Assembly: GCA_035528155.1 (NCBI GenBank)
Contig: DATKZA010000121.1
Span: 26,554-90,553 of the forward strand
Direction: 5' to 3'
Source: Patescibacteria group bacterium
GTDB taxonomy: Bacteria > Acidobacteriota > Aminicenantia > UBA2199
Length of the DNA stretch: 64,000 bases
Shown in pieces: positions 672 through 21,222 of the stretch. The notes below the pieces were generated by a model. That model saw only the letters and a list, made by a program, of their open reading frames with translations, did no database searches and was not told where the DNA came from. Position 1 is the first letter of the stretch. Each line of letters starts with the position of its first letter. The position numbers were made by a program, and so were the translations under genes.

Positions 672-775
672 ACTCAGTGAATAGTGATTGGTGATTGGTT
701 AGGAAAAAAGAAAAACTGAGTTTCTCGGGAATGCGGCTGCCAATCACGAATCACTATTTACCAATCACTACTTTG
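672..775. repeat. Intergenic repeat element with tandem CAATCAC/GTGATTG units; same family as repeats at 18946-19186 and 54830-55300
   Basis: actcagtgaatagtgattggtgattgg ... ccaatcacgaatcactatttaccaatcac resembles ctttaccaatcactaatcaccaatcacgaataacgaatcac at 55245-55290. Confidence 0.4.
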
Positions 776-1983
776 TTGGCTCCAGAGTAACTCATGAAAT
801 CATTTATCAAGTTCACGTGATCACCGCGAATAAGCAAATGGTGGTTGGCCAGCGGTGCCTTCAGGAAATACTCGACCGGTTCCTGAAGACGCAGGCGTAC
901 CTGGGTGCGGCACAGGCCGGGTTCGGGGCGGCCGGGCAGAACGTCGGCAGCCGATACGAAGTAACTCCCCAAATCGGGATTTCCCACTTTAAACACCGTG
1001 GCCGGACCGGGGGGGAAGTCGCCGCTGAGGGCAACGCCCAATCCCGTTTCGAAATGGGTTTGCAGACGGTAAGTGCTGACGGCACGCCGCGGCACCGTGC
1101 AGTGGGCCAGGATCAGTTGGTTGTGCTTGCGGTCGATGGTGGCCGGGTTGGCCATGAAGGGGATCTCCCCGGTCAGGACGAACAGCAGGAGCATGGAAAA
1201 TACCGCCGGCACATCGCCTTCGCAGCCGCAAATCATCCCCTCGTCGTTGAGTCGGGACAACGCCAGGCAGCCGCTGGTTTGCAGCCGCTCGATCAGGCTG
1301 AAGCAGCGCAAGGTGGCGGCCCGCAAGTCGTGGCGGGCATATACCGCTTTTAAGGCCGGAACCAAGCAGGCGGCCGCCTGCAGCGCCGCTTCGTCCACCC
1401 CATCCAGTTTTTTCGCTTGCCCGATCCATTCACGGGCGAGGGTCGCGACTTCCGCCTCATCTGCCATGTGCCCGGACACTTCGTCAAGGGCGATGTCGAT
1501 GAATTCCGTTCCCCAGAGAGCTTTGACGGCGGCGCGGTCAACGATGGAAGCGATCAGCCAGTCCGACGGTTCGCCGATGATGCCGATGCGCCCGGCCAGG
1601 GCCCGGCGTGTCCTTTGAAAATCGGCGAGCCGCCGCAAGCGCCCGACCATTAGACTGCCGTCGCCGTGCACGATCTCGGCCGCCTCTCCCTGCTGGCGCA
1701 CCCAGCTGGAAATTTCCAGGGCGGCGGGCAGGGAATTGTGCTTGCCGTCGGCCAGCAGGATGACCGGTTTGGCCAGGGCAGGGTAGATCTGAACGAATTT
1801 CTGCTCGCTCCCCCCGGAAGCGACGAATACGACCTGCAGATCGGCTTCGGCCTGATCTCCGGGATGGGTCTCGAGAAGCGTGAATTCCTCACTCAGAAGA
1901 GCCAGGAATTCCCTACGGTCTTTTTCAAAGCGGACCTTGTCATGCCTTCCCGAATCCAGGCGGAGCAGGGCGATCTTGATCAT
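754..1983 (-). CDS. Hypothetical protein, possibly a sugar isomerase-like (L-fucose/L-arabinose isomerase family) fold
   Basis: 409-aa ORF with coding-like composition; weak resemblance (MICGCEGD region) to FucI/AraA-type isomerases; no firm motif. Confidence 0.3.
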   Translation of the reverse strand: MIKIALLRLDSGRHDKVRFEKDRREFLALLSEEFTLLETHPGDQAEADLQVVFVASGGSEQKFVQIYPALAKPVILLADGKHNSLPAALEISSWVRQQGEAAEIVHGDGSLMVGRLRRLADFQRTRRALAGRIGIIGEPSDWLIASIVDRAAVKALWGTEFIDIALDEVSGHMADEAEVATLAREWIGQAKKLDGVDEAALQAAACLVPALKAVYARHDLRAATLRCFSLIERLQTSGCLALSRLNDEGMICGCEGDVPAVFSMLLLFVLTGEIPFMANPATIDRKHNQLILAHCTVPRRAVSTYRLQTHFETGLGVALSGDFPPGPATVFKVGNPDLGSYFVSAADVLPGRPEPGLCRTQVRLRLQEPVEYFLKAPLANHHLLIRGDHVNLINDFMSYSGANKVVIGK

Positions 1984-2101
1984 GGTTTTCTCCCGGCCTT
2001 GCCTTGCAAGGCAGCCGGAGAGATTTTACCATATCCGCTCAGCGTCCTTCTTGAGCTGGCGCGATTTTTTTAATAAAAATCGCCAGGTTTTTATTCAGAA
2101 A

Positions 2102-2824
2102 TCATGATTTTCCTGATTGATCATCCTGGACGAGCTTGCGGCCGCGGGCAAACAGGGAGTGGATCTTGTCCATGACCAGGTTGAACAAGAAGCGCAGGCC
2201 GCGCCAGATGTGTTTGCTCGACCAGAGCATGAGCAGGCCCAGGGCGGCCAGCATCATGGCAATGATCAGGGTGAGCACGCCGGCCACCTGGGGATGGTTC
2301 TGGAAGGGGCCGAATTGAAAGATGGCTTCCCCGGCCCAGCGGTTGATCTCCAGGAAGAGGTCCGGGGAGATGATGGTGATCAGGCCGACCAGGGCACAGA
2401 GAAAACCGCTGATCACAAAAACCACGGCCGTGGCGAAATAGGCGATCAGCAGCCCGGCCAGGAAGGCCAGCAGGCCGGCGACCAATCCCAGGCCGCCCAT
2501 GCCCAGAGGCGCGGCGAAAAAGATGATCAGAAAACCGGCCAGGATATAGAGAAGCGATTTTTTTTGCTTGCCCAAACGGGTGATGCTTGCTCCCACCCGG
2601 CTGGAGACCACTTCGGCCGGGTCGCCCAGCTTTTTCAGCACGCGCAAGGAGCGGTCGATCTCGTCGCCCTCACTGTCGCTGCTGAAGGATTCGTAAATAT
2701 GCGAGCGGATCTCGGCCAGTATCTCCTGTTGGTCCTTTTCGTTCATGCCCTTCAATTGTGATTTTAGCTTTTCCAGGTAATCGGCGACGATCTTTTCCGC
2801 TGCCGGCGGGAAATGGTTATTCAT
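2102..2824 (-). CDS. DUF1700/HAAS-type membrane protein (putative sensor partner of PadR)
   Basis: N-terminal soluble helical region followed by 4-5 TM helices; overlaps the stop of the upstream PadR gene by 8 nt, the usual PadR-DUF1700 pairing. Confidence 0.55.
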   Translation of the reverse strand: MNNHFPPAAEKIVADYLEKLKSQLKGMNEKDQQEILAEIRSHIYESFSSDSEGDEIDRSLRVLKKLGDPAEVVSSRVGASITRLGKQKKSLLYILAGFLIIFFAAPLGMGGLGLVAGLLAFLAGLLIAYFATAVVFVISGFLCALVGLITIISPDLFLEINRWAGEAIFQFGPFQNHPQVAGVLTLIIAMMLAALGLLMLWSSKHIWRGLRFLFNLVMDKIHSLFARGRKLVQDDQSGKS

Positions 2825-3248
2825 TTTTCTTCCTCCTGATCACGATTTTTTTATTGCTTGGCGGGTCTGGCTGCGGTTGCGGCTCAGCGGCGGCGCTTTC
2901 CACCAGCAGCACCAGGCGCCGGAACTCAGTTTGCAGTGACTCGCATACGGCCCGGCCGGCCGTGGTCAATTCGTAGTATTTGCGCGGCGGCCCCTGGCTG
3001 GATTCCACCCAATCGGAACGCACCAGCCCTTCGCGGTTCAAGCGGGAGAGGATGGGGTAGACGGTGCCCTCCTTGATTTCGACCGCGTCCGGGTTTGCCA
3101 GGCTGCGGACCAGCGAGTAGCCGTAATGGGTTTGGCGGTACAGGACGGCCAGGACGGCCAGTTCCAGTATACCCTTGCGCAACTGGGTGACCTTGTTGTC
3201 TGTTTCTTCTGCCATGATCTTGTTCATGCCTAGTATACGATAAAACAT
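2817..3248 (-). CDS. PadR family transcriptional regulator (alternative starts at 3227 or 3215)
   Basis: LRKGILELAVLAVL...GYSL...EGTVYPILSRLNREGLV is the PadR winged-helix signature. Confidence 0.8.
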   Translation of the reverse strand: MFYRILGMNKIMAEETDNKVTQLRKGILELAVLAVLYRQTHYGYSLVRSLANPDAVEIKEGTVYPILSRLNREGLVRSDWVESSQGPPRKYYELTTAGRAVCESLQTEFRRLVLLVESAAAEPQPQPDPPSNKKIVIRRKKNE

Positions 3249-3372
3249 AGTAGTTGGTTCAAAAAAAATTAATTTTTATAGATCCCGGCCAGGCCGGTAC
3301 TTTTCATGAAATTAGCGATCCGTCCATCCCGGCCGCTGGGGATCCGCTTAAAGAAGGTTGGCGGAGCGACCG

Positions 3373-4254
3373 CTATGGATTGACAAAAACGCCCATGCGG
3401 CGGTATTTCTGGTAGCGTCGGTTGAGAAGGGTCTCCATGTCGCAATCGAGCAGCTCTTCCAGGGCGGCGGCCAGTACCGTCTTCATGGCTGCGGCGGTTG
3501 CTTCTGGATTTTCATGTGCTCCCGGCTCGGGTTCCTCGATGATGCCGTCGATGATGCCTTTCTGGAACAGGTCCGCGGCGGTCAGTTTCAGCGCCGTGGC
3601 CGCGGCCGGGGCCTTGGCGGCGTCCTTCCAGAGGATGGATGCGCAGCCTTCCGGGGAAATGACCGAATAAATGGTATTGGTCAGCATGAAAATCCTGTCG
3701 GCGACGCCGATGCCCAAAGCGCCGCCCGAGCCCCCCTCACCGGTGACCACGGCCAGGATGGGTACGCGCAGGCTGGACATGCGGTAAAGGTTGTAGGCGA
3801 TGGCCTCGGCTTGGCCCCTCTCCTCGGCTCCGATGCCGGGGTAGGCGCCGGGAGTATCGATCAGGATGAGCACCGGGCGGCCGAACCTCTCCGCCTGCTC
3901 CATTAAGCGCAGGGCCTTGCGGTAGCCTTCGGGGTGGGCCATGCCGAAATGGCGGCGAATGTTTTCCTTGACGTTGCGCCCCTTCTGATGGCCGATGACG
4001 GTCACCGCCAGGTTCGAAAAAAGAGCAATGCCGCCGACGATGGCCTTGTCGTCGGCAAAACGCCGGTCGCCATGGAACTCGATGAAATCGCGGCACAAGT
4101 ATTGGAAATAATCCAGGGTAGTGGGGCGCTTGGGGTGTCGGGCCAGTTTGACGATGTCGATGGCGGATGTCAACTGCCGGGCTTCGTGCAGGTCCTTATC
4201 TCGGCGGTTTTCAGACATGGGCTTCGCCTCCTTGGTCGTATGGCCTTTGTTCAT
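3373..4254 (-). CDS. accA: Acetyl-CoA carboxylase carboxyltransferase subunit alpha (alternative start at 4218)
   Basis: [13 protein letters not shown]...DDKAIVGG...[17 protein letters not shown]...[13 protein letters not shown] closely matches AccA. Confidence 0.9.
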
Positions 4255-5020
4255 GGATGCGCAAAATGGTAGTCAGTACCGGCTTGAGGTTTTTGCGCTG
4301 AACGACCAGGTCCAGCATGCCATGCTCCAGCAGGAATTCCGCGGTCTGGAACCCCGGGGGCAGGACCTGGCCGATGGTCTGCTGAATGACCCGGGGCCCG
4401 GCGAAACCAATCAGGGCTTTGGTCTCGCCGATGATGATGTCTCCCAGCATGGCAAAGGAAGCGGTAACCCCCCCCGTGGTCGGGTCGACCAAAACCGTGA
4501 CCAGCAGCAAGCGCCGCTCATGGAATCGCTTGATAGCCGCCGCCGTCTTGGCCATCTGCATCAGGGAATAGATCCCCTCCTGCATGCGCGCTCCGCCCGA
4601 GCAGATGATGAATACCGCCGGAAGGAAATGGTCGGTCGCGTATTCGATCAGGCGGGTGATCTTCTCGCCGACCACCGATCCCATTGAGGCCATCAGGAAA
4701 CGCGGTTCGAAGACGGCCAGAGCGGTCCGATGGTCGTTGATCTTGCCGACGCCGGTGAGCACGGCTTCGTTCAGCGAGGTGGCGGCCATGGCTGCGGCGA
4801 TTTTCTGACTGTACTGGGGAAAATCCAGCGGATCGGCGCTCTGCAAATCGGCGTCCAGTTCAAAAAAAGTTCCGCGATCGCATATTCTTTTAATCCGGTT
4901 CGGAGCTTCGATGCGAAAGTGCCAGCCGCACTTGGAACAGACATAGTGGGCGTGGCGTAGAAAGGAAATGAAATGGGTGGTATTGCAATTCAGGCATTTG
5001 ACAAATAATTTGGCAAGCAT
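4211..5020 (-). CDS. accD: Acetyl-CoA carboxylase carboxyltransferase subunit beta; the track ORF is over-extended and the true start is MLAKLF at 5020
   Basis: N-terminal C4 zinc ribbon CLNC...CSKCGWH followed by a carboxyltransferase domain; conserved AccD architecture. Confidence 0.9.
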
Positions 5021-5031
5021 GCATTCACCTT

Positions 5032-6371
<1,340 letters not shown>

Positions 6372-6375
<4 letters not shown>

Positions 6376-6881
6376 GAATCTCCCGCGTTTTCTTCGATCT
6401 TGAACATGGTTTGGCCGAACTCGACCAAAGCGCTGTTTTCAACGCAAATTTCGCGGATAATGCCGTCGATGTCGGTTTGGATTTCGTTCATGTTCTTCAT
6501 GGCTTCGATGATGCAGAGGATGTCGCCGGCCTTGACAGAGTCGCCGATCTCGACAAATGGTTCGGCGTCTGGGGCCGGAGCCCGGTAGAATGTCCCGACC
6601 AACGGCGCCTGGACCTGGAAATATTTTTCGCTCTCTGTTTTATCGGCGCTTTCCGGTTCCGGGGTGAGCAGCGCCGCCGGGGGCGGGTCCGCTTGCGCAG
6701 GTGGCAATCCTGTCCAGGCGGCTGTCTTGTCGCTGTCAACAGCAGCAGTCGCCTGGCGCGAGTGGGAATGGCCACGCTTGATTTCGACGCTGGTGAACCA
6801 GTTGCGGATGGAAAGCTCGACGAGCTGGTGCTTGTCCATCAATTCGATCAACTCAAGAACGATTTTTTTCCTAAATTTCAT
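6372..6881 (-). CDS. accB: Biotin carboxyl carrier protein
   Basis: C-terminal biotinyl domain with the IEAMKNMNEI (EAMK biotinylation) motif; 4-nt overlap with accC. Confidence 0.9.
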
Positions 6882-6997
6882 TCTGCCCTCCGCGCCAAGT
6901 ATTCTATTTCAGAGCTGATCCGGACTGGGTGATTTCCATAACATAACAGATAGTTTTAACAATTTCAAGGAGCAGCCGGTTTTTTTCGTTGCCGCCG

Positions 6998-13429: not shown

Positions 13430-13456
13430 ATTGTAAGGACCGGGTTTTTCGGGTTT

Positions 13457-13594
13457 TCAGGAACAGCTGATCCGGTTCTTGCCGTTTTTCTTGCTTTTGT
13501 ACATCAGCAGGTCGATATTGCTCCCAGCTCCAGTCAAGTGAGGGCGACCGTGCTCTCTTCCTCCTTGGTCATGATGTTCAGGCGCATGGTTTTA
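13457..13594 (-). pseudogene. Out-of-frame C-terminal remnant of a GGDEF domain (NIDLLMYKSKKNGKNRISCS*)
   Basis: Translation of the -1-shifted frame gives (A)DxLMYKSKKNGKNRI, matching the GGDEF C-terminal consensus ADxALYxAKxxGRNR(V/I); no start codon in this frame. Confidence 0.3.
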
Positions 13595-13821
13595 TGGTTC
13601 ATATCGATATTGATGATATCGACTTCCAGGTTTTCATTTAATTCCAGTGATTTGAGCTTGGTGGTGATCTCCAACAGGGAATCGGTCGAGAGCTTTTCGT
13701 ATCTTAACTCAGCCCTGATCGTGGCGTAGTTGCCGCGGTCGAATTGATCGATGCGCAGGATGGCGAAACCGTAACGGTCAAAAACATCATAAATCAATTG
13801 CGGATCATAAGTGCTTTGCAT
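13534..13821 (-). CDS. Small hypothetical protein (95 aa) with a degenerate GGDEF-like N-terminal half; likely part of a decayed diguanylate cyclase
   Basis: FAILRIDQFDRGNYATIRAEL resembles the LxxDIDHFKxxND segment of GGDEF; lower GC than the surroundings; no GG(D/E)EF motif. Confidence 0.3.
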   Translation of the reverse strand: MQSTYDPQLIYDVFDRYGFAILRIDQFDRGNYATIRAELRYEKLSTDSLLEITTKLKSLELNENLEVDIINIDMNHKTMRLNIMTKEEESTVALT

Positions 13822-14005
13822 GATTGCCCCCGACCTTTGAGAAAATTTGTCATAAGCGGCTGCATTTTCTCTTTCATTAATATAGAATACTTTGCCTGCA
13901 AAATCAATACAATGCCCCTTTTTGCAAATTTCGGCATGGCCGGGTCGGTTCGGCCGGGGCTTGCAATCTGGCCTATCTTGATTTAAAATTTCCCCGGGTG
14001 TTGAC

Positions 14006-16033
14006 ATGATGGATAAAATCGGCAAATACACGATAAGCGGCGAAATCGGCAAGGGCGGCATGGGGGTGGTCTACCGCGGCCTGGATCCCGTGATCGGCCG
14101 TTCCGTGGCCGTCAAAACCGTCCGCCTCGATATCCTGAGGGGGGAGAGCGGCAGGGAAGACGCGCTCAAGCGCTTCCTGCGCGAAGCCCAGGCGGCCGGC
14201 AATCTCTCCCATGCCAATATCGTTACCATTTACGATGTCGGCGAACACGAGGGGCTGATCTATATTGCCATGGAGTTCATCGACGGCTGCAGCCTGGAGC
14301 AACTGCTGCAGCAGGAAAGGAAATTCACACTGCAAGAGATCACCCATTTGTTCAGCCAGATCGGCTCGGCCCTGGATTACGCCCATGGGAAGGGGATCGT
14401 CCACCGCGACATCAAGCCGGCTAACATCCTGGTCGGGCGGGACCTCAAGGTCTCCATCGTCGATTTCGGCATCGCCCGTACCGCCGCCTCGACCATGACC
14501 CAGACCGGCATGCTCATGGGGACACCGCGCTACATGTCCCCCGAGCAGATTGCCGGAAAAAAGGTGGACAACCGTTCTGACATTTTTTCCCTGGGAGCCA
14601 TCTTGTACGAGCTGTTGACCCAGCACAATCCCTTCGCAGGCGAGAGCATTACCACCGTCATTTACAAGATCATGCACGCCGAACTTCCCCCGCTCAGCGA
14701 TTTCAACAAGCAGCTGCCGGCCGGCCTGGAAGGCGTGGTCAAAAAGGCTCTGGCTCGCGACGCCGACGCCCGGTATCACAGCTGCGGCGAACTGCTTGCC
14801 GACTTGAAAAAATACGCTTTGGCCGTTCCGCAAGGCGCCACGGTCAGGGAAAGCAATTTTTACGACCATGATACGCAGCTTTTGGAAGTTGCCGGGAACA
14901 CGGTTTTTTCCGCGCCGCGCCGCCGCCGGAAACCGCTGTTGTTTTTGACGGCGTTGCTGGTCGGATTGCTGGCCGCCGCCCTTTTTGTCTTCTGGCCCGG
15001 GAGGCGAACGAATGTTCTTCCTTCCCCTGAAGGCGGTGAGATTTCCCGGCCGGCAGCCGCCCAGGAAAACAGCGGGACCGCGGGCCGCGATGTCGCTCCC
15101 GATCAAGCTGCGGTTGACACGTCCGGCCCGGACGGCCTTTTGCCTGGAGGCGAACCGGAGCCGGCCAAGAAGACCGACACCCTGCCGGCTGCCGCTGGGA
15201 CCGGTGTCCGGCCCGGGGCGCCCGTTGAAAAGCCGCTTGCTGAAATTGCCCAGGCGCAAAGCGTTGCCGGTGGGATTCAGGATGAAAGATCGCGCGCCGA
15301 GGCCGCAGCTGCCAATAAAAAAGGCTTCCTGGAGCGGGTTTTTTTCAACGGCACGGTTATGGTACAGGTCCGCCAGGGCAATTTTACCATCGGTTCTCCC
15401 AGGGGGGAAGGCGACGCCGACGAACATCCGGCCCACAAGATATTCATCAGCGATTTCTGGCTGGGAAAAACCGAAGTGACTTTTGAGCAGTTCGATTTAT
15501 TCTGTCGTGAAACCGGGCGCAGCCTGCCAAGCGATGAGGGTTGGGGCCGGGGCAGCCGGCCGGTGATCAATGTTTCCTGGGACGACGCGGACAGCTACTG
15601 CCGCTGGCTGGCGCAAAAAACCGGCCGCAACTTCCGCCTGCCGCGCGAGGCCGAATGGGAGAAAGCCGCCCGCGAAAAGTATCCCTGGGGCAGGAGCTCT
15701 CCAAGCGCAAACCAGGTCAACATGAAGGGCAAGGCGGACGGTTTTGCCTTCACCGCCCCGGTCGGCTCGTTTGCTTTAGGAGAATCGCCTTACGGCATCC
15801 TGGACATGGCCGGGAACGTCTGGGAATGGATGGCCGACTGGTACGACCCCGGCTATTACCAGGCAGCGGCCGGCCGCGACCCGCAAGGTCCGGCCGCGGG
15901 CAAAGACCGGGTGGTACGCGGCGGTTCCTGGAGAGACGGATTGGAGCTGATCCGTTCCGCCAACCGCAGCAGCGAGCGTCCGGAGCGGCGCCTGAACGTG
16001 CTGGGCTTCCGCGTGGCCATGGACTACCGCTGA
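14006..16033 (+). CDS. Hanks-type Ser/Thr protein kinase fused to a C-terminal formylglycine-generating-enzyme (FGE/SUMF1) domain
   Basis: Kinase motifs GxGxxG, VAVK, HRDIKPANIL, DFGIA, SPE; TM helix; C-terminal FGE-sulfatase region ending RGGSWRD...VLGFRVAMDYR. Confidence 0.85.
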   Translation: MMDKIGKYTISGEIGKGGMGVVYRGLDPVIGRSVAVKTVRLDILRGESGREDALKRFLREAQAAGNLSHANIVTIYDVGEHEGLIYIAMEFIDGCSLEQLLQQERKFTLQEITHLFSQIGSALDYAHGKGIVHRDIKPANILVGRDLKVSIVDFGIARTAASTMTQTGMLMGTPRYMSPEQIAGKKVDNRSDIFSLGAILYELLTQHNPFAGESITTVIYKIMHAELPPLSDFNKQLPAGLEGVVKKALARDADARYHSCGELLADLKKYALAVPQGATVRESNFYDHDTQLLEVAGNTVFSAPRRRRKPLLFLTALLVGLLAAALFVFWPGRRTNVLPSPEGGEISRPAAAQENSGTAGRDVAPDQAAVDTSGPDGLLPGGEPEPAKKTDTLPAAAGTGVRPGAPVEKPLAEIAQAQSVAGGIQDERSRAEAAAANKKGFLERVFFNGTVMVQVRQGNFTIGSPRGEGDADEHPAHKIFISDFWLGKTEVTFEQFDLFCRETGRSLPSDEGWGRGSRPVINVSWDDADSYCRWLAQKTGRNFRLPREAEWEKAAREKYPWGRSSPSANQVNMKGKADGFAFTAPVGSFALGESPYGILDMAGNVWEWMADWYDPGYYQAAAGRDPQGPAAGKDRVVRGGSWRDGLELIRSANRSSERPERRLNVLGFRVAMDYR

Positions 16034-16749
16034 TGGCCGCCCTCACCTCGCTGCATGCCCTGATCGAAGCCCTGAGGGACGGAGCGCCGATCAACAAGGT
16101 TCTGCTCAACCGCTCGCGCCAGGACGCGAAGATGCGCACCGTGATCGAGTTGTGCCGCCGGCGCGGCGTGATCTTTCAGCTCGTCCCGGCTGAAGCCGTC
16201 GACCGCAAGGCCGGCGTCAGGAACCAGGGCGTATGGGCCGAGATCGCGCCCGTCGGTTTTGTTTCCCTCGATTCGCTGCTGGCCGCGGTCAAAACCGGCC
16301 TGGTCGTGATCCTGGACGGCATCGAGGATACCGGCAACCTGGGGGCCATCGTGCGCAGCGCCGCCGCCGTGGAAGCCGACGGGATTCTGGTCTCCATCCG
16401 CGGCTCGGCCCCGGTCAACGACACCGTCTGGAAGACCTCGGCCGGGACCCTGGGGAAAGTGAGCCTGGTCCAGTCGCGCAACCTGGCCATGGATATCGAG
16501 AAATTGAAAAAAGCCGGTTTCTGGGTGGTGGCGGCCGACCAGCGCGCCGGCATAAATTTTTATGACTTTGATTTCAAGGGCAGAACCGCCGTGATATTGG
16601 GAAACGAAAGCAAGGGGGTCTCGGCCCTGCTGAAAAAAAATGCCGACCAGCTTCTGGCCATTCCCCATTCGCCGGCCGTGGAATCGCTCAACGTGTCGGC
16701 CGCGGCGGCCATCATGCTGTTCGAGGCCTATCGGCAGAAGAACAAGTAA
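16033..16749 (+). CDS. rlmB: SpoU/TrmH-family rRNA 2'-O-methyltransferase (RlmB-like); start overlaps the kinase stop (TGATG)
   Basis: SpoU methylase motifs LDGIEDTGNLGAIVRSAAA, AVILGNESKGVS, LNVSAAAAIMLFE. Confidence 0.8.
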   Translation: MAALTSLHALIEALRDGAPINKVLLNRSRQDAKMRTVIELCRRRGVIFQLVPAEAVDRKAGVRNQGVWAEIAPVGFVSLDSLLAAVKTGLVVILDGIEDTGNLGAIVRSAAAVEADGILVSIRGSAPVNDTVWKTSAGTLGKVSLVQSRNLAMDIEKLKKAGFWVVAADQRAGINFYDFDFKGRTAVILGNESKGVSALLKKNADQLLAIPHSPAVESLNVSAAAAIMLFEAYRQKNK

Positions 16750-16903
16750 CCTGGGTTCCGGGGAACAGCGAAAACCAAAAAGCAGGGCTCGAAGTTCGAC
16801 GTTGGAACGCCATAGACGAAATCCAAGCCTCGCAGCCAGCGGGCAGGCCTGCCCTGAGGGAACAAATATTTTTAATAAACAAAAATTCTGTTATAATCAA
16901 GAC

Positions 16904-17296
16904 ATGGCGAAAAAAGGCTTTACCCTGATCGAGCTGCTGATCGTGGTCACCCTGATCGGCATCTTGGTGGCGATCATGGTGCCGCAGTACAAGTATTCGG
17001 TTTTGCGGGCCAAGGAGGCGGTCCTGAAGGAGAACCTGTTCCAGTTGCGGGACGCCATCAACAAGTATTATTTCGACAAGAAAAAGTATCCGGCCAGTCT
17101 TGACGACCTGGTCACGGCGCGCTACCTGCGCGAGGTCCCCTTTGATCCCATCAGCAAAAGCAGTGAATGGGAGTTGATCCGGACCGAGCCCCTGGAGGAC
17201 GAGGAATTCGATCCCGAGGCCGACCAGGGCATTATCGACGTCAAATGCCTGTCCAAGGCCACCTCCATGGACGGCACGCCCTATGCCGATTGGTAG
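16904..17296 (+). CDS. Type II secretion/type IV pilus pseudopilin (GspG-like) with a prepilin N-terminal methylation motif
   Basis: MAKKGFTLIELLIVVTLIGILVAI is a classic prepilin peptidase site G|FTLIE; extended -10 TGTTATAAT immediately upstream. Confidence 0.75.
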   Translation: MAKKGFTLIELLIVVTLIGILVAIMVPQYKYSVLRAKEAVLKENLFQLRDAINKYYFDKKKYPASLDDLVTARYLREVPFDPISKSSEWELIRTEPLEDEEFDPEADQGIIDVKCLSKATSMDGTPYADW

Positions 17297-17305
17297 GGGG
17301 CGGCG

Positions 17306-17824
17306 GTGAAAAAACGGCCTTTTGCCGGCCGCGCCGGCTACGTCATGATCGTGCTGATGATCGCCGTGGCGGTGCTGAGCGTGTTCATGCTCATGGCCGT
17401 GCCGCTCTGGCAGACCATGATGCAGCGCGAGGCCGAGGAGGAGCTGATCTTCCGCGCCCGCCAGTACGTCAGCGCCATCGGCTTTTACGTCAAAAGCCAC
17501 AACAACCTCTACCCGCAGAATTTCGAAATCCTGCACCTGGAAAAATTCCTGCGCCGGCTCTATCCCGATCCGGTCAGCGCCGACGGTCGTTGGGACATGG
17601 TTTTCAAGGATACTACCGGCGGCGAGGCCAAATACCTCGTGGTCCCGGCCCACCTGGCCCAGGCCTATTTCAGCCGGGCCGTGCTTGTGGGCGTATGCTC
17701 CACTTCCCCGGAAACGGCTTTCCGCGAATATCGCGGCAAAAAGAAATACAATGAATGGGCTTTTTACCTGGGTGAAAAGGAAAACGAGAAAATGCCCGAG
17801 CTGCAGTACGAGGGCGGCCAGTGA
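17306..17824 (+). CDS. Prepilin-like protein lacking the conserved Glu+5 (minor pseudopilin-like); GTG start
   Basis: Leader MKKRPFAGRAG|YVMIVLMIAVAVLSV resembles a prepilin N-terminus but has V at +5. Confidence 0.45.
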   Translation: MKKRPFAGRAGYVMIVLMIAVAVLSVFMLMAVPLWQTMMQREAEEELIFRARQYVSAIGFYVKSHNNLYPQNFEILHLEKFLRRLYPDPVSADGRWDMVFKDTTGGEAKYLVVPAHLAQAYFSRAVLVGVCSTSPETAFREYRGKKKYNEWAFYLGEKENEKMPELQYEGGQ

Positions 17825-18945
17825 AGAACATCCTGCTGGTGGCGGCCGAAAATTCGGCCGAAACCTACGCCGTGCAGGTCCTGAAGGAATTTCAGGCCCG
17901 GGGCGACCACTTCCATTTCTGGGGAATTGGCGGCGACCGCCTGGCCGCCAACGGCTTTGAAAACCTGGTGCACAACCGCTCGCTGTCGGTGGTGGGCATC
18001 GTCGAGGTCGCGGCCCACCTCTTGCGCATCCGGCGGGTGCTGAACCTGGTCCTGCGCCGGGCGCGGGAACGCAAAGCCGACGCCGCCCTGCTGATCGACT
18101 ATCCCGACTTCAACCTGCGCTTGGCCCGCCGCCTGCGCCGGGCCGGTATCCCGGTTTATTACTACATCAGCCCCACGGTCTGGGCCTGGCGATACGGCCG
18201 GGTCGAGCAGATCCGCCGCTGGGTGAGCCGGCTGTTCATCATTTTTCCTTTTGAAGTGCCCATTTACGAAATGGAAAAGGTGACCTTCACCTATACCGGC
18301 CATCCGCTCCTGGCCGAGGTGCGGGTCAGCGAACCGCGAGAGGAATTCCGCCGCCGCCACGGCGTGGCCGCCGGCGACATCCTGCTGGCGCTGCTGCCGG
18401 GCAGCCGCGAGGCCGAGGTGCGCACGCTGCTGCCCGAGATCATGGGAGCCGTGCGCCGCCTGCAAAAGGAATTTCCCCTGAAAGTGTTTCTGCAGAAAGC
18501 GCAGAATATTCACCAGGAGCAACTGGCCGCGGTCGACCCGGATATCCGCGTCCTGGACCAGGAACAGGGCTTCGACCTGCTCAACGCCGCCGACGCGGTC
18601 ATCACCACTTGCGGCACTTCCAACCTGGAGGCGGCCTTGCTCGGGGTCCCTTTTGTCGCCGTGTACCGCGTCAACCGCCTGACCTACCTGCTGGGCAGGC
18701 GCTTTGTCAAGATCGGTCTATATTCCATTGTCAATATCCTGGCTGGGCGCCAGGTTGCGACCGAGCTGATACAAAAAGAGTGCCGGACCGGGCGCATTTA
18801 TGAGGAAACCAAAAAGATCCTGGACGATCCCCGGCTGCGGGAAGAAATGCGGCGAGAGTTCCGGCGCATCAAGGATAGCCTTAGCCAGGAAGAGAAACCC
18901 GCCGTCATCATCTGCCGCCAGATCGGCGCCGACCTGGAAGGGTGA
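17821..18945 (+). CDS. lpxB: Lipid-A-disaccharide synthase; GTG start overlapping the upstream stop (GTGA)
   Basis: Full-length similarity to LpxB (GT19): MKNILLVAAENSAE...LLIDYPDFNLRLA... Confidence 0.85.
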   Translation: MKNILLVAAENSAETYAVQVLKEFQARGDHFHFWGIGGDRLAANGFENLVHNRSLSVVGIVEVAAHLLRIRRVLNLVLRRARERKADAALLIDYPDFNLRLARRLRRAGIPVYYYISPTVWAWRYGRVEQIRRWVSRLFIIFPFEVPIYEMEKVTFTYTGHPLLAEVRVSEPREEFRRRHGVAAGDILLALLPGSREAEVRTLLPEIMGAVRRLQKEFPLKVFLQKAQNIHQEQLAAVDPDIRVLDQEQGFDLLNAADAVITTCGTSNLEAALLGVPFVAVYRVNRLTYLLGRRFVKIGLYSIVNILAGRQVATELIQKECRTGRIYEETKKILDDPRLREEMRREFRRIKDSLSQEEKPAVIICRQIGADLEG

Positions 18946-19185
18946 GAAAAACTGAGTGGCGCGAGACAAATTCATATTTCTGATCCTACTCAGTAAACTC
19001 ACCCCCGTTCCCCCTCTCTTTTTTTAAGAGAGGGGGTCAAGAAGACTTCCTATTCCCCTTCTCTTGCTAAGAGAAGGGGTAGGGGATGAGTTTCACGCAT
19101 TCAGATTTTCCTGCAAATATTTCATTTTCGAGATTCTATTGTTTTTCTTATTTCTGACCCAACCTGAGGGCCTGACTTTCCTTGC
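18946..19185. repeat. Intergenic cluster of short palindromic repeat units (CCCCTCTCTT-loop-AAGAGAGGGG; GGTAGGGGATGAGTT...GCATTCAGA); same family as 54830-55300
   Basis: ccccctctctttttttaagagaggggg and ccccttctcttgctaagagaaggggtaggggatgagtttcacgcattcaga nearly match units at 54918-54965. Confidence 0.5.
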
Positions 19186-21222
19186 TCAACTGAAACTGAG
19201 TTCCCCGATTTTTTTGGCCAGTGCCGACAAATAATTTTTAACATCGTCGTTCTGCAATTCCGGGTTATGCAAAAGCCGGCGGGCGTCGGTTTGCGCTTCC
19301 TGCAAAAGCCGGTAATCCTTCTTGACGTCCGCCAGCTTGAAATCCAGCTCCCCGGCCTGCTCCAGGCCGGCGATCACGCCGCCGCCGCGAAGTTCCAGGT
19401 CCATCTCAGCGATCTTGAAGCCGTCGTGGTGGGCGGCGACGGCTTGCAGGCGCAGCTTGCCGTTTTCGGTCGGTCGCGGCGACTCGATCAGGAAACAATG
19501 CGACTGCTCTGTCCCGCGTCCCACCCGGCCGCGCAGCTGGTGCAGCTGCGCCAGGCCGTAGCGGTCGGCATTTTCAATGACCATGATGGTGGCGTCGGGA
19601 AAATCGATGCCCACCTCGACCACGGTCGTGGCCAGCAGCAGGCGGACGCCACCTTTGGCAAATTGCTTTAATGCCCGTTCCTTTTGCTCCGCGGTGCTTT
19701 TTCCTGAAAGCACGGCCTGGGGGATGCCGGGCCAGCGGGTTTTGCCTGCCGCCGCTTCTTCCTGGAGTGAACGCAAGTCGGGATAATGCTCTGATTTTTC
19801 GATCAACGGCAGGATGACATAGCCCTTGCGCCCGCTTTCCAGTTCCCCTTTCAGCCGCCGGTAGAATTTGTCGCGGTTCGCGGCATGAACAATAGTAGTA
19901 CAGACCGGCAGCCGCCCGGATAGAGGTTTTTTTAAGGTGGATACGGCCAGGTCGTTGTACAGGGCCAGCAGCATGGTGCGGGGAATGGGGGTGGCGGTGG
20001 TGACCAGCAGGTCGGCGGCCCGGCTTTTGAAAAACAAGGCGGCCCGCTGGGCCACGCCGAAGCGGTGCTGTTCATCGATGACCACCAGGGCCAGGTTTTT
20101 GAAAACGATGCTTTCGCTGATCAGGGCGTGGGTGCCGAAAACCAGGGATATTTCGCCGCAGGCCAGGCGGGCGCGGATCTCCTTTCTGGCTCGGGGTTCG
20201 CAGCCGCCGGTCAGCAGGGCGATACCGTCGCTGCCGAAAAAGGAGCAGGCGTTCCGGTAATGCTGGCGGGCCAGGATCTCGGTCGGGGCCAGTAACGCTC
20301 CCTGGTGACCGTTCTCGCGGGCCAGCAGCAAAGCCAGGAAGGCCACGATGGTCTTGCCGCTGCCGACCTCGCCCTGCAGCAGGCGCTGCATGGTCCGGGG
20401 CGATCGCAGGTCGTTGACGATCTCGCTGAAAGCCGCGACCTGTTCTTCGCTGAGCGGGAACGGCAGGCGGCGGTCGATAGAGCGGCGCAGGTCGTTGTGG
20501 AAGAGGTAACGGTGCAGCCGCCGGCGGCCGTGGAAACATGCGCGGACGAATTGCAGTTCGAGTTGGAAAATGAGCAATTCGCCGTAAATGAAGCGCTCCT
20601 TCATTTTATCGATTTTATCCCGGTTCAGAGCCTGAGGCTGGTGGATGGCGCGCAGGGCCGTTGTTCGTCCGGGAAAGTCATGCCGCTGCAGGACCAGGTC
20701 GGGCAGTGTTTCCCCTTCATCCTGCCAGGAGGCGAGTATGCCGGCAATGATCTTGCGTATGGTTCCGGCTTTCAGCGCGGCCAGTGGCCGGTAACGGGGA
20801 AGAATACCGCCAACGCGGTTTTCCGGCGCCAGCAGCGGATTGACCATCTGCCACCTGTCCTGGCGTTCTTCGATACGGCCGAAAACGTAGGCCGGTTCTT
20901 GCCGGCGCAGGGTTTCCAGCAGGTAGGGTTGGTTGAAAAAGACCAGGGTTACCGGGCGTCCGCCGATCTGGCCCTGGGCCGTGAGCAAGGAGGATCTTTT
21001 CCTGAAATTGCGGCTCACCCGGACGCGGCCGACGGTGAAGGCGTAGAGCCCTTCCCGGCCGGGTAAGGGGGATGCCTCGATTTTAGATAAATCCAGGTAG
21101 GTTTCGGGAAAATACAGCAGCAGCTCTGCGGCCGTGGCCATGCCGCGGCGGCGCAGGATAGCGGCGTAACTGGGGCCGATCCCCTTGAGTTTTTCAACCG
21201 GGGTGTCTGGCGTGATGGTCAA
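19186..21222 (-). CDS. recG: ATP-dependent DNA helicase RecG
   Basis: Wedge domain followed by SF2 helicase motifs (GEVGSGKT, DEQHRFG, QLRGRVGRG) over 678 aa. Confidence 0.9.
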   Translation of the reverse strand: MTITPDTPVEKLKGIGPSYAAILRRRGMATAAELLLYFPETYLDLSKIEASPLPGREGLYAFTVGRVRVSRNFRKRSSLLTAQGQIGGRPVTLVFFNQPYLLETLRRQEPAYVFGRIEERQDRWQMVNPLLAPENRVGGILPRYRPLAALKAGTIRKIIAGILASWQDEGETLPDLVLQRHDFPGRTTALRAIHQPQALNRDKIDKMKERFIYGELLIFQLELQFVRACFHGRRRLHRYLFHNDLRRSIDRRLPFPLSEEQVAAFSEIVNDLRSPRTMQRLLQGEVGSGKTIVAFLALLLARENGHQGALLAPTEILARQHYRNACSFFGSDGIALLTGGCEPRARKEIRARLACGEISLVFGTHALISESIVFKNLALVVIDEQHRFGVAQRAALFFKSRAADLLVTTATPIPRTMLLALYNDLAVSTLKKPLSGRLPVCTTIVHAANRDKFYRRLKGELESGRKGYVILPLIEKSEHYPDLRSLQEEAAAGKTRWPGIPQAVLSGKSTAEQKERALKQFAKGGVRLLLATTVVEVGIDFPDATIMVIENADRYGLAQLHQLRGRVGRGTEQSHCFLIESPRPTENGKLRLQAVAAHHDGFKIAEMDLELRGGGVIAGLEQAGELDFKLADVKKDYRLLQEAQTDARRLLHNPELQNDDVKNYLSALAKKIGELSFS

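What the first reader, a model, noticed from the sequence alone, without database searches (positions are those of the whole stretch)
672..19186. A family of short intergenic palindromic repeats recurs at at least three loci in the window
Related units appear at three intergenic sites: 672-775, 18946-19185 and 54830-55300. They include ACTCACCCCC-N-CCCCTCTCTT-loop-AAGAGAGGGG hairpins and GGTAGGGGATGAGTT-N-GCATTCAGA (19077-19120 versus 54944-54965, near-identical over about 40 nt). They also include tandem (A)CCAATCAC motifs (721-770 versus 55245-55295). A weaker echo (tgggattggaatgagtttgc) follows the perfect 24-bp palindrome AGGGGCACGGCGCGCCGTGCCCCT at 23647-23670. This looks like a REP/MITE-like repeat family that could drive recombination. 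It is also useful as a strain or lineage marker.
Basis: seen in the sequence. Interest (0 to 1): 0.55.

Follow-up and report, generated by a model that had tools for sequence, protein, structure and literature searches.

The report
Triplex-forming palindromic DNA repeat family
These short intergenic repeats are hairpins followed by a third strand that can fold back into a DNA triple helix, a known but unexplained bacterial repeat type (BoxC/PIT/TM); in other genomes the same repeats bracket a small DUF559 endonuclease gene, which gives a testable clue to their function.

Summary
The repeats are real. The 11-mer GGGGRTGAGTT occurs 6 times against 0.07 expected, always intergenic. The tail mirrors the purine arm (G to G, A to A/T), as an antiparallel purine-motif triplex requires. 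The rule held for 47 different arm sequences in 118 genome loci from many phyla and replicated in 80 independently chosen loci; controls were near zero. This is the known BoxC/PIT/TM_ECO class (Holder 2015), with a new stem sequence and tails-outward pairing. It is neither a RAYT-type REP nor a lineage marker. The window holds five perfect units, one decayed and one interrupted. Site 1 shares only a heptamer array.

Apparently new: the same paired units bracket a ~120-aa DUF559 (Vsr-like endonuclease) gene. 67 of 80 protein-selected loci have units within 200 nt (2.21 versus 0.04 per kb). The ~580-bp module lies in unrelated contexts and ends at the outer tails. E. coli ycjD carries TM_ECO #9 beside it, and both are present or absent together. 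The window's pairs are gene-less copies. In-vivo triplex formation and DUF559 action are inferred.

The parts
18996..19036 (-). Triplex unit U1 (G-type). Read on the minus strand: CCCCCTCTCTT-aaaaa-AAGAGAGGGGG-aac-GGGGGTGAGTT. Left half of pair E1.
   Evidence: Class II scan: 11 triplets, 0 Watson-Crick and 0 third-strand mismatches.
19055..19092 (+). Triplex unit U2 (A-type): CCCCTTCTCTT-gct-AAGAGAAGGGG-ta-GGGGATGAGTT. Right half of pair E1.
   Evidence: Class II scan: 11 perfect triplets.
18996..19092 (.). Pair E1: two units back to back with tails outward, between convergent lpxB and recG. It is bounded by the inverted termini AACTCACCCCC / GGGGATGAGTT. Gene-less counterpart of the repeats that flank DUF559.
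   Evidence: Same layout as the DUF559-flanking pairs. No terminator-like site. Alternative Watson-Crick three-way junction at -30.3 kcal/mol as ssDNA. Identical in a strain with 0.5% flank divergence.
54860..54894 (-). Decayed unit U3 (G-type), left half of pair E2. Tail reduced to GGGTGAATA, with one stem mismatch.
   Evidence: 1 Watson-Crick and 1 third-strand mismatch. Intact in strain L003 as AACTCACCCCC-aa-CCCCCTCTCTT....
54907..54945 (+). Triplex unit U4 (A-type): CCCCTTCTCTT-ccc-AAGAGAAGGGG-gta-GGGGATGAGTT. Right half of pair E2.
   Evidence: 11 perfect triplets. 47/54 identical to the U2 region.
55006..55044 (-). Solo unit U5 (minus strand): CCCCTCTCATT-tta-AAAGAGAGGGG-atg-GGGGTGAGTTT. 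On the plus strand its hairpin is followed by T9.
   Evidence: Terminator-like on the plus strand only. Changes in concert with U3 between strains.
55175..55214 (-). Triplex unit U6 (G-type): CCCCCTCTCTT-tggg-AAGAGAGGGGG-tca-GGGGGTGAGTT.
   Evidence: 11 perfect triplets.
55296..55306 (+). Orphan A-type tail GGGGATGAGTT without its hairpin. With U6 it brackets the heptamer array (element E3, 55175-55306).
   Evidence: sequence.
55250..55290 (+). Tandem heptamer array (CACNAAT, ~5.4 copies) where the right-hand hairpin of E3 would be.
   Evidence: TRF, period 7. Exact ACCAATCAC at 55250 and 55264.
23629..23728 (.). Probable decayed unit (CCTTCTTTT ... AAGAGAAGG-gttgc-GGGTGAGCT). A 52-nt insert splits its loop and contains the 24-bp palindrome at 23672-23695.
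   Evidence: Found only in the relaxed scan, which also yields 3-5 hits per surrogate sequence. The call rests on similarity of arms and tail to the family.
54831..54858 (.). GTAGGGGTTTGAT-ga-ATCAAACCCCTAC hairpin. It belongs to a second small hairpin family and abuts pair E2. A second copy lies at 55451-55474.
   Evidence: Perfect 24-nt inverted repeat I14. Absent in strain L003, whose flanking 1764 nt differ at one base.
684..768 (.). Site 1: heptamer repeats GTGATTG x2 (684-699, inverted) and CCAATCAC-like copies (739-768). No triplex unit.
   Evidence: Identical in four assemblies.

Best explanation
The repeats at 18996-19092 and 54860-55306, plus a decayed copy near 23.7 kb, belong to the intrastrand-triplex repeat class known from E. 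coli as BoxC / PIT / TM_ECO.

Anatomy. Each unit is a pyrimidine arm, a 3-5-nt loop, the complementary purine arm, a linker of about 3 nt, and a G/T/A tail. The tail runs antiparallel to the purine arm and matches it triplet by triplet (G.GC, A.AT, T.AT).

How it folds. When the G-rich strand is single-stranded, the unit can fold into a hairpin with the tail laid in its major groove. This is a class II purine-motif triplex. It acts at the DNA level, not the RNA level.

Organisation. Units are mostly arranged as back-to-back pairs of two different stem types with the tails outward, about 90-100 bp long.

Link to a gene. In other genomes two such pairs bracket a ~120-aa DUF559 (Vsr-like PD-(D/E)XK) endonuclease gene. 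They form a ~580-bp module whose ends are the outer tails. The window's pairs are gene-less copies of that module's repeats.

Shown: the anatomy, the three-strand covariation, the distribution, the DUF559 association and the module boundaries.

Inferred: that the triplex forms in cells, that DUF559 acts on the folded repeat (nicking it to start copying, conversion or deletion), and that gene-less pairs arise from the module or are spread by it.
For: - Enrichment in the window: 6 exact tail 11-mers against 0.07 expected. The class II scan found 7 hits, 5 of them perfect, against 0.05 per surrogate.
- Distribution: the same unit gave more than 118 exact-pattern stretches in reference genomes of many phyla. 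117 of 134 of these carry the 5' arm that the pattern did not require.
- Mirror rule, tested without using the tail: 119/317 hairpin sides have a full-length mirror tail, against 7/317 for the direct-order control, 19/15850 for random 20-mers and 74/15850 for base-shuffled tails. 47 distinct arms comply and the linker peaks at 3 nt.
- Replication in loci chosen by protein only: 91/244 against 3/244 and 14/12200, with 31 distinct arms.
- Watson-Crick pairing is insufficient: 55 of 71 solo units have no complement to the tail nearby.
- Which triplex type: T is used opposite A in about 60% of cases, which suits the purine motif and not the pyrimidine motif on the other strand.
- Prior art: same architecture, shared core GAGAGGG-TTA-GGGTGAG, the same loop-2 types TTA and CCG, intergenic location, heterotypic inverted pairs, and a triplex shown by CD and NMR on oligonucleotides. 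Three units in the same loci fit the literal TM_ECO pattern.
- Not a transcript element: 80% of units are intergenic, and the strand split in tandem-gene contexts is 40 against 48.
- DUF559, forward direction: present in 10 of 118 pattern-selected loci and abutted by units.
- DUF559, reciprocal direction: 67/80 protein-selected loci have a unit within 200 nt, 31 on both sides, at 2.21 against 0.04 units per kb.
- Module: intact 114-144-aa ORFs in 79/80 loci, with homology between loci limited to about 560-590 bp. Boundaries fall at the outer tails.
- Link to the window: its pairs have the same layout as the flanking pairs.
- E. coli: TM_ECO #9 lies 168 nt past the ycjD stop on the same strand. 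The unit and ycjD are present together in 3375 of 5426 genomes and both absent where eefRABCD occupies the site.
Against: - Triplex formation has been shown only for E. coli oligonucleotides in vitro. In-vivo DMS footprinting there did not detect it, and PIT elements showed no promoter, terminator or conjugation effect (PMC4666352). Nothing was measured for this stem variant.
- In paired units the two tails can also pair with each other in a Watson-Crick three-way junction.
- The window has no DUF559 gene, and the rest of this genome could not be examined.
- 13 of 80 DUF559 loci have no detectable unit. 108 of 118 pattern-selected loci have no DUF559 within about 4 kb.
- No target-site duplication and no empty-versus-filled site for a solo pair was found.
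- DUF559 has no demonstrated activity.
The 80 protein-selected loci are the closest relatives of one query, so the association is shown for that subfamily plus E. coli YcjD. Gene calls used for the context statistics were crude.
Confidence: 0.72

Rival explanations
1. REP/REPIN-type elements: extragenic palindromes recognised and mobilised on single-stranded DNA by a RAYT (Y1/HUH) transposase, specific to this lineage.
For: The elements are intergenic, palindromic and clustered in mosaics between convergent genes. A second hairpin family with GTAGGGG...CCCCTAC ends is polymorphic between strains.
Against: The window and the 9 kb beyond it contain no Y1 transposase or any other transposase. The triplex units lack the GTAG head. 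The same unit occurs across many phyla. The gene found next to them is DUF559, not a RAYT. REP biology does not explain the mirror-image tail.
Confidence: 0.04
2. Transcript-level elements: bidirectional intrinsic terminators or 3'-end stabilising hairpins for the convergent genes.
For: All three named sites lie between convergent genes. The hairpins are stable. One hairpin (55022-55044) is followed by T9 on the plus strand.
Against: E1 has no terminator-like site, and four of five perfect units have no T tract. Across 88 tandem-gene contexts the unit strand is 40 same and 48 opposite. Purine-motif triplexes are reported not to form in RNA, and E. coli PIT elements had no terminator activity (PMC4666352). 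The conserved tail would have no role.
Confidence: 0.06
3. Ordinary Watson-Crick palindromic MITE: the tails are simply terminal inverted repeats bound by a transposase, and the resemblance to a triplex motif is incidental.
For: Pairs and modules end in the inverted termini AACTCAYCCC / GGGRTGAGTT. As ssDNA the termini of E1 pair with each other.
Against: The tails co-vary with the adjacent purine arm in mirror order for 47 and 31 distinct arms, which inverted-repeat function does not predict. 55 of 71 solo units have a tail but no partner terminus. No target-site duplication is visible. The linker length is fixed at about 3 nt.
Confidence: 0.08
4. A host-level structural DNA element unrelated to DUF559, for example a supercoil-driven cruciform/triplex switch, a replication pause site or a nucleoid-protein site. 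In this view DUF559 genes merely insert preferentially next to it.
For: Stems are conserved while loops and linkers differ in every copy in the window. Site 2 is unchanged in a diverged strain. Most units are far from any DUF559. E. coli has 23 units and one ycjD.
Against: Module boundaries coincide with the outer tails, and the flanking pairs are homologous between unrelated contexts. The repeats therefore travel with the gene rather than pre-existing at the site. In E. coli the unit and ycjD are gained and lost together.
Confidence: 0.15

Closest known systems
TM_ECO / BoxC / PIT (potential intrastrand triplex) elements of E. coli and other bacteria (Hoyne et al. 2000; Holder et al. 2015, PMC4666352)
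   Same: - Class II purine-motif layout: Py arm, loop of 3-6 nt, Pu arm, 3-nt loop, reverse-Hoogsteen strand.
- Shared core GAGAGGG-TTA-GGGTGAG.
- The same commonest second loops (TTA, CCG).
- Strictly intergenic, with no strand bias.
- Frequent inverted pairs made of two different types.
- Multi-copy and dispersed.
- Three units in the related loci fit the literal TM_ECO pattern.
   Different: - The stem ends in AA with tail TT instead of GGG/GGG, so only two G tracts remain and an intramolecular G-quadruplex is not possible (inference from the sequence).
- Stems are 10-11 triplets rather than 9.
- Pairs are tails-outward (53 against 5), whereas 4 of 5 E. coli pairs are tails-inward.
- Found mainly in uncultivated phyla.
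- The published work reports no associated gene.
REP / BIME elements and their RAYT transposases (REPINs)
   Same: Short extragenic palindromes, often in inverted pairs, present as many gene-less copies plus a few copies flanking a small nuclease-type gene. They are thought to act as folded single-stranded DNA.
   Different: The flanked gene is DUF559 (PD-(D/E)XK, Vsr-like), not a Y1/HUH transposase. There is no GTAG head. A third, mirror-image strand is part of the unit. The distribution crosses phyla.
MITEs (miniature inverted-repeat transposable elements)
   Same: The pairs are about 95-bp non-coding elements with 10-11-bp terminal inverted repeats. A larger gene-carrying relative shares the same ends.
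   Different: No target-site duplication was seen. The gene in the larger form is not a known transposase. The termini obey the triplex mirror rule relative to the adjacent hairpins.
H-DNA (intramolecular triplex at homopurine-homopyrimidine mirror repeats in duplex DNA)
   Same: The same base triplets and the same antiparallel purine-motif geometry.
   Different: H-DNA needs a long mirror repeat within one duplex tract and leaves half of one strand unpaired. Here all three strands lie consecutively on one DNA strand, as a hairpin plus tail. The tail uses T as well as A opposite A.
Vsr endonuclease and Vsr-like homing endonucleases (clade 'VSR, DUF559, DUF2726' in PMC3424549; PDB 3HRL)
   Same: The gene in the module belongs to this fold family (Pfam PF04480, E about 1e-32; PDB 3HRL, E = 1.5e-26). 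The clade includes a DNA-nicking repair enzyme and a group I intron homing endonuclease.
   Different: No activity, substrate or biological role is known for DUF559 or YcjD. A link to triplex repeats was not found in the literature I could search.

Membership tests
Class II purine-motif intrastrand triplex motif (ITxF / PIT definition) | A 5' pyrimidine block is Watson-Crick complementary to a following purine block (hairpin). | tested here: met
   Five units have 11-bp perfect or one-mismatch Py/Pu stems.
Class II purine-motif intrastrand triplex motif (ITxF / PIT definition) | A 3' third block runs antiparallel to the purine block and gives G.GC, A.AT or T.AT at every position. | tested here: met
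   11 of 11 triplets in U1, U2, U4, U5 and U6. Family-wide covariation with controls.
Class II purine-motif intrastrand triplex motif (ITxF / PIT definition) | Stem 6-15 nt with at most one mismatch and loops 1-6 nt (Holder 2015); or more than 7 perfect triplets with loops 0-10 nt (Hoyne 2000, as quoted by Holder). | tested here: met
   Stems 11 nt, loop 1 of 3-5 nt, loop 2 of 2-3 nt. Criteria taken.
Class II purine-motif intrastrand triplex motif (ITxF / PIT definition) | Physical formation of a triplex by the isolated strand (CD, NMR, melting). | not testable with these tools
   Shown only for E. coli TM_ECO oligonucleotides. The available folding tools model Watson-Crick pairs only.
TM_ECO (literal consensus CCCTCNCCC-N3-6-GGGNGAGGG-N3-GGGNGAGGG) | A match to the published consensus. 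| tested here: not met
   No window unit matches. Three units in related loci (L037, L085, L086) do. The window units share only the core GAGAGGG-NNN-GGGTGAG.
REP / REPIN with RAYT | A RAYT (Y1 transposase) gene flanked by, or co-occurring with, the repeats. | tested here: not met
   None among the window's genes or in the 9 kb upstream. The rest of the genome was not available.
REP / REPIN with RAYT | A conserved GTAG-type head next to an imperfect palindrome, in a lineage-restricted family. | tested here: not met
   The units have no GTAG head, and the same unit occurs in many phyla. A separate small hairpin family in the window does begin with GTAGGGG.
MITE | Terminal inverted repeats on a short non-coding element. 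| tested here: met
   AACTCAYCCC ... GGGRTGAGTT at the ends of pairs E1 and E2 and of the DUF559 module.
MITE | Target-site duplication flanking each copy. | tested here: not met
   No direct repeat is seen at the ends of five aligned modules or of E1 and E2. This was judged by eye only.
MITE | A related autonomous element that encodes the transposase. | tested here: inconclusive
   A gene-carrying relative with the same ends exists, but its gene is a DUF559 endonuclease of unknown activity, not a recognised transposase.
Intrinsic (Rho-independent) terminator | A G+C-rich hairpin followed by a T/U tract on the transcribed strand. | tested here: not met
   There are 0 terminator-like sites in site 2, and only one unit's hairpin (55022-55044) precedes a T run. 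There is no strand bias relative to genes.
DUF559-flanked triplex-repeat module (defined here) | A DUF559 gene lies between the paired units. | tested here: not met
   tblastn with ten DUF559 proteins finds nothing in the window or adjacent contig parts. The window's pairs are therefore gene-less copies.

The most novel reading that the evidence does not exclude
BoxC/PIT/TM-type triplex repeats are the cis-acting ends of a self-propagating module that encodes a DUF559 (Vsr-like) endonuclease. The enzyme recognises or nicks the folded hairpin-plus-third-strand DNA. The many gene-less units and pairs, including those in this window and the 23 TM_ECO copies of E. coli K-12, are its non-autonomous derivatives. 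This would be a nuclease-repeat partnership analogous to RAYT-REP, but built on a DNA triple helix. The cross-phylum three-strand covariation would then be the first evolutionary evidence that such triplexes form and matter in cells.
Probability: 0.4. Interest if true: 0.85.

Novelty: new member of a known kind. Interest (0 to 1): 0.62.

Why it matters
BoxC/PIT/TM repeats have been known since the 1990s. A stable triplex was demonstrated in vitro, but no function, no in-vivo structure and no partner protein have been found.

This analysis adds two things.

1. **Evolutionary evidence for the triplex.** All three strands co-vary, across dozens of stem variants and many phyla. The selected stem variant cannot form a G-quadruplex, so selection appears to act on triplex pairing itself.
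2. **A candidate partner.** DUF559 genes are bracketed by these repeats in a discrete module, and this includes E. coli ycjD.

The second point makes the open question testable in a model organism by deleting or overexpressing ycjD, running nuclease assays on folded TM_ECO DNA, and comparing strains with and without the module. It also gives the large DUF559 family a first functional hypothesis.

For genome annotation, these units explain contig breaks, spurious low-complexity ORFs and local variability in many metagenome-assembled genomes.

Tried and rejected
- **Rfam.** At gathering thresholds the window gave only a tRNA, and five cassette or E. coli loci gave nothing. The permissive scan of 54800-55830 gave only sub-threshold noise.
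- **Literature search by sequence string.** Only unrelated primer matches.
- **RAYT or other transposase near the copies.** None.
- **Terminator reading.** Rejected on the lack of T tracts and of strand bias.
- **Watson-Crick partner for the tail.** Exists in pairs but is absent for most solo units.
- **Heptamer arrays as part of the unit.** Period 7 is the commonest tandem period in these loci, but the arrays are not significantly closer to units than the intergenic background (8/25 against 23%). I treat them as co-residents of the same gaps.
- **'UvrA' cluster near units.** It resolved into generic ABC-type ATPases. The histidine kinase and secreted-protein clusters are likewise generic.
- **Viral contigs.** Only 12 stretches, so the motif is not characteristically viral.
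- **Strain comparison as a test of instability.** Most other assemblies are the same strain. Site 2 is unchanged at 0.5% flank divergence. Only the left end of site 3 differs.
- **Phylum of the window.** Not resolved by comparison with the fetched loci. The gene content only suggests Acidobacteriota or Aminicenantes-like bacteria (inference).
- **An early bug.** My first hairpin and class II finders double-counted nested arms and missed U2. Both were corrected.

Full report

Yes, with corrections. The 11-mer GGGGRTGAGTT occurs six times in the window against 0.07 expected from dinucleotide-preserving shuffles, and all six copies lie in two intergenic gaps. The longest pair of copies, 19053-19105 and 54905-54958, is 47/54 identical.

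Site 1 (672-775) contains no such hairpin. It shares only CCAATCAC-type heptamers with site 3. The 24-bp palindrome is at 23672-23695, 25 bases from the stated position.

All three named sites lie between convergent genes: a YkuD-like gene and a 409-aa ORF, lpxB and recG, and a TPR protein and a TonB-type barrel.

**2. One unit, not two**

AACTCACCCCC, which precedes three of the hairpins, is the reverse complement of GGGGGTGAGTT. The 'ACTCACCCCC-N-hairpin' and the 'hairpin-N-GGGGATGAGTT' are therefore the same unit on opposite strands.

Read in its own orientation, a unit consists of:
- a pyrimidine arm, CCCC(C/T)TCTCTT;
- a loop of 3-5 nt;
- a purine arm, AAGAGA(G/A)GGGG;
- a linker of 2-3 nt;
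- a tail, GGGG(G/A)TGAGTT.

An ITxF-style scan of the whole window found five perfect units: 18996-19036 (-), 19055-19092 (+), 54907-54945 (+), 55006-55044 (-) and 55175-55214 (-). It also found one decayed unit at 54860-54894 (-). The expectation was 0.05 per first-order Markov surrogate.

That scan also yields 3-5 hits per surrogate, so this call rests on sequence similarity to the family.

Units U1+U2 and U3+U4 form back-to-back pairs (E1, E2) with the tails outward.

**3. The family is not lineage-specific**

My own rough estimate of the chance expectation is a few tens.

The hits come from Patescibacteria/CPR, Bacteroidota, Ignavibacteriota, Bacillota, Armatimonadota, Aminicenantes, Calditrichota, Cloacimonadota, Zixibacteria, Latescibacterota, Margulisbacteria, Gammaproteobacteria and others. 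They include contigs of 0.7-3.9 Mb, so mis-binning cannot explain the range.

117 of 134 hits also carry the complementary 5' arm, which the pattern did not ask for.

**4. The tail is a mirror image of the purine arm**

Read 3' to 5', AAGAGAGGGG is GGGGAGAGAA, and the tail is GGGGTGAGTT. Every G faces G and every A faces A or T. The variant arm AAGAGAAGGGG goes with the tail GGGGATGAGTT. Arm and tail variants are concordant in 141 cases and discordant in 5.

To avoid circularity I searched the loci for perfect Py/Pu hairpins without looking at the flank, and then asked whether the 3' flank obeys the rule over the full arm length.

| Test (879 kb, pattern-selected loci plus window) | Full-length matches |
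|---|---|
| Mirror rule | 119 / 317 hairpin sides |
| Arm read in direct order (control) | 7 / 317 |
| Random 20-mers from the same loci | 19 / 15,850 |
| Same tails, base-shuffled | 74 / 15,850 |

Forty-seven different arm sequences comply. Examples are AAGAGGAAGGG|gca|GGGATGGAGTT, AAGGGGGAGG|ccc|GGTGGGGGTA and AAGGGAAAGG|ctg|GGATAGGGTT. The linker length peaks sharply at 3 nt.

The result replicated in 80 loci chosen by a protein rather than by DNA pattern: 91/244 against 3/244 and 14/12,200, with 31 distinct arms.

Mirror-order covariation with A/T equivalence is what an antiparallel purine-motif triple helix requires (G.GC, A.AT, T.AT). Neither Watson-Crick pairing nor templated copying produces it. 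T is used opposite A about 60% of the time, which is incompatible with a pyrimidine-motif triplex on the complementary strand. Each unit has only two G tracts, so an intramolecular G-quadruplex is not an alternative (inference from the sequence).

**5. This architecture is already known**

Holder et al. 2015 (PMC4666352) describe intrastrand triplex motifs in 5,246 prokaryotic genomes. They focus on TM_ECO, earlier called BoxC and later PIT elements by Hoyne and Maher. Its consensus is CCCTCNCCC-N3-6-GGGNGAGGG-N3-GGGNGAGGG, a class II purine-motif triplex.

Their findings:
- The oligonucleotide forms a very stable triplex by CD and NMR.
- In-vivo DMS footprinting did not show it.
- The elements are always intergenic, without strand bias.
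- The second loop comes in types TTA and CCG.
- Inverted pairs always combine the two types.
- Promoter and terminator activity were not found.
- The loci are unusually variable between strains.
- No associated gene or function was identified.

The window's units share the layout and the core GAGAGGG-TTA-GGGTGAG. Across the loci the commonest linkers are again TTA, TTG and CCG. Three units in those loci satisfy the literal TM_ECO pattern.

Differences:
- The loop-proximal stem end is AA, with TT in the tail, instead of GGG/GGG.
- Stems are 10-11 triplets rather than 9.
- Pairs are tails-outward (53, against 5 inward and 7 direct). Four of the five E. coli pairs are tails-inward by their published coordinates.

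**6. Context statistics and rival readings**

195 G-containing units were found in 879 kb. 80% are intergenic although stop-free ORFs cover about 90% of the DNA. In tandem-gene contexts 40 units lie on the gene strand and 48 on the other. This argues against a transcript-level role. So does the report, quoted by Holder, that purine-motif triplexes do not form in RNA.

Pair E1 has no terminator-like site. Only one unit's hairpin (55022-55044) is followed by a T run.

As single-stranded DNA, E1 can also fold into a Watson-Crick three-way junction in which the two tails pair (-30.3 kcal/mol, z = -6.5). This is a real competitor within pairs. However, 55 of 71 solo units have no complement to their tail within 120 nt.

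Pairs are mostly heterotypic: 19 of 37 non-overlapping pairs combine a G-type and an A-type unit, and only 5 are homotypic.

Rfam has no matching family.

**7. An associated gene: DUF559**

I clustered the ORFs of the 118 pattern-selected loci. One specific family emerged: a protein of about 120 aa present in 10 loci. It is abutted by units within tens of bases in nine of them and by long-loop units in the tenth. It is DUF559 (PF04480, E about 1e-24 to 1e-32).

DUF559 is a Vsr-like PD-(D/E)XK family. It has one solved structure, 3HRL (E = 1.5e-26). It is classed with Vsr and with a group I intron homing endonuclease.

For the reciprocal test I used a profile of ten trimmed DUF559 cores to fetch 80 metagenome loci by protein similarity alone. 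The seed peptide lay inside the protein. Results:
- 67 of the 80 loci have a unit within 200 nt of the gene.
- 31 have one on both sides.
- Unit density is 2.21 per kb within 250 nt of the gene and 0.04 per kb elsewhere in the same loci.
- The ORF is intact (114-144 aa) in 79 of 80 loci.

Loci with unrelated flanks share 70-82% identity over only about 560-590 bp. An alignment of five such modules shows homology that begins at (CG)AACTCACCCT and ends at GGGGATGAGTT(C). These are the outer tails of an upstream and a downstream pair. The two pairs are themselves about 85-89% identical. The window's E1 and E2 have exactly the layout of these flanking pairs.

**8. The link holds in E. coli**

MG1655 has one annotated DUF559 gene in this region, ycjD (1,351,407-1,351,760, minus strand). 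TM_ECO #9 (1,351,204-1,351,239, same strand) lies 168 nt past its stop. With 18 TM_ECO loci in 4.6 Mb, I estimate chance adjacency within a few hundred bases at about 0.4%. YcjD is 35-43% identical to the cassette proteins.

Among 5,426 complete E. coli genomes, 3,375 carry the stretch with both TM_ECO #9 and ycjD. In others, such as O157:H7, homology stops about 40 nt before the unit, and the eefRABCD efflux operon occupies the site.

An independent study reports that ycjD is found in place of eefRABCD, and that the operon was lost at least twice (PMC12817139). It does not mention the repeat.

None of 25 papers mentioning DUF559, nor the searches on ycjD, intrastrand triplex, BoxC or Vsr with triplex, links the protein to these repeats. 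The library covers open-access papers only, so an earlier description cannot be excluded.

**9. What the window itself shows**

The window has no DUF559 gene, transposase or RAYT. Its units are gene-less copies.

The five perfect units have five different first loops and five different linkers, while all 11 triplets are intact. That pattern points to constraint on the three stem strands.

Site 2 is identical in an assembly whose flanking 3.6 kb differs at 19 positions. Site 1 is identical in four assemblies.

Strain L003 differs from the window at 1 of 1,764 flanking bases but shows three differences at site 3:
- It lacks the 28-nt GTAGGGG hairpin at 54831-54858.
- It has an intact left unit in E2.
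- It differs at the same positions in both nearby minus-strand units (U3 and U5). This indicates conversion between copies 145 nt apart.

Contigs from three other samples end inside site 3.

**10. How it most likely works**

Shown:
- The unit anatomy and the three-strand covariation.
- The DNA-level (strand-neutral, intergenic) distribution.
- The paired organisation.
- The DUF559 module with its boundaries, and its presence/absence behaviour in E. coli.

From the literature: a closely related sequence forms a stable triplex in vitro, arrests DNA polymerase in vitro, and marks variable loci.

Inferred:
- When the G-rich strand is unwound, by replication, transcription or negative supercoiling, the hairpin captures its tail as a third strand.
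- With one unit on each strand, a pair can do this whichever strand is exposed.
- DUF559, a nicking-type endonuclease fold, acts on this structure and so starts the copying, conversion or deletion events that spread or remove units.
- Recombination between the two flanking pairs of a module would leave a solo pair like E1 or E2.

I put about 0.9 on the classification, about 0.5 on triplex formation in cells, and about 0.4 on DUF559 being the acting enzyme.

**11. Novelty and caveats**

The element in the window is a new member of a known kind, with a new stem sequence and a new pair geometry. The cross-phylum covariation test and the DUF559 association go beyond what I found published. They make the function of BoxC/PIT/TM repeats testable in E. 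coli.

Caveats:
- The 80 protein-selected loci are the closest relatives of one query.
- Gene calls for the context statistics were crude longest-ORF calls.
- Target-site duplications were judged by eye.
- The rest of this organism's genome could not be examined.

Noticed in passing
window 54831-54858, 55451-55474, 23672-23695 (possibly 55622-55668): A second small hairpin family with GTAGGGG...CCCCTAC ends. Two copies share the stem GGGGTTTGAT; the third has the stem GGGGCACGGCG and lies inside the loop of a decayed triplex unit. The copy at 54831 is absent in strain L003, whose flanking 1764 nt differ at one base, so it is a recent insertion or deletion.
   Followed up: partly
window 54860-54894 and 55006-55044; L003 1771-1810 and 1921-1960: Concerted evolution. 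Both minus-strand units read CATCCCCTCTCTTT.AAAATGAGAGGGG in the window, and both read CAACCCCCTCTCTTTTAAAAAGAGAGGGG in L003. This suggests conversion between copies 145 nt apart.
   Followed up: partly
window 55250-55290, 55358-55385, about 55400-55425, 684-699, 739-768: Tandem heptanucleotide arrays with different unit sequences: CACNAAT, CGTAACG, GAGGTTY and inverted GTGATTG. Period 7 is the commonest tandem period in the 118 related loci (57 arrays of at least 3.5 copies, against 27 of period 6). The arrays are not significantly closer to triplex units than the intergenic background (8/25 against 23%). They recall the cyanobacterial STRR heptamers (from my own memory, not checked).
   Followed up: partly
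window 713-721, 18949-18957, 19193-19201: The 9-mer AAACTGAGT occurs three times on the plus strand, against about 0.5 expected by my estimate. Two copies bracket the whole lpxB-recG gap as a direct repeat, and the last lies inside the 3' end of recG.
   Followed up: no
window 19097-19105 and 54950-54958: The 9-mer GCATTCAGA lies 4-5 nt beyond the tails of units U2 and U4. Its meaning is unknown.
   Followed up: no
window 48293-51556 and 55812-58838 (with neighbours 51725-54827 and 59188-61241): A duplicated gene block with 7.5-kb spacing: two CarboxypepD_reg/TonB-type outer-membrane barrels at 67-80% DNA identity. Each lies next to GWxTD and TPR genes.
   Followed up: no
window 54828-55811: An unusually long (984-bp) gap between convergent genes, filled with repeats. 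The likely true terminator of the barrel gene is the GCCCCCCGAAGGGGGC hairpin at 55755-55770, with T/A runs on both sides. Contigs from three other samples break inside this gap.
   Followed up: partly
L148 vs L169; L219/L222; L174/L205: Two observations on DUF559 cassettes. In L148 and L169 the cassette is inverted relative to the same neighbouring gene in two related contigs. In L219/L222 and L174/L205 there are tandem duplications of about 100-580 bp next to, or including, the cassette.
   Followed up: no
L120 (Bacteroidales contig CAIYUC010000028.1): A UvrA-like stop-free reading frame runs straight through a triplex unit, which translates as ...PPLFLQERGSGGEF.... Such units may account for odd low-complexity segments in predicted proteins.
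   Followed up: no
E. coli NC_000913.3 1351040-1351827; NZ_CP066759.1 2773649-2778771: The stretch [TM_ECO #9 + ycjD] is present in 3375 of 5426 complete E. coli genomes. Elsewhere the eefRABCD efflux operon occupies the site, with shared sequence ending about 40 nt before the triplex unit.
   Followed up: partly
window 22456-22540 (-): A tRNA gene, the only Rfam match in the window.
   Followed up: no
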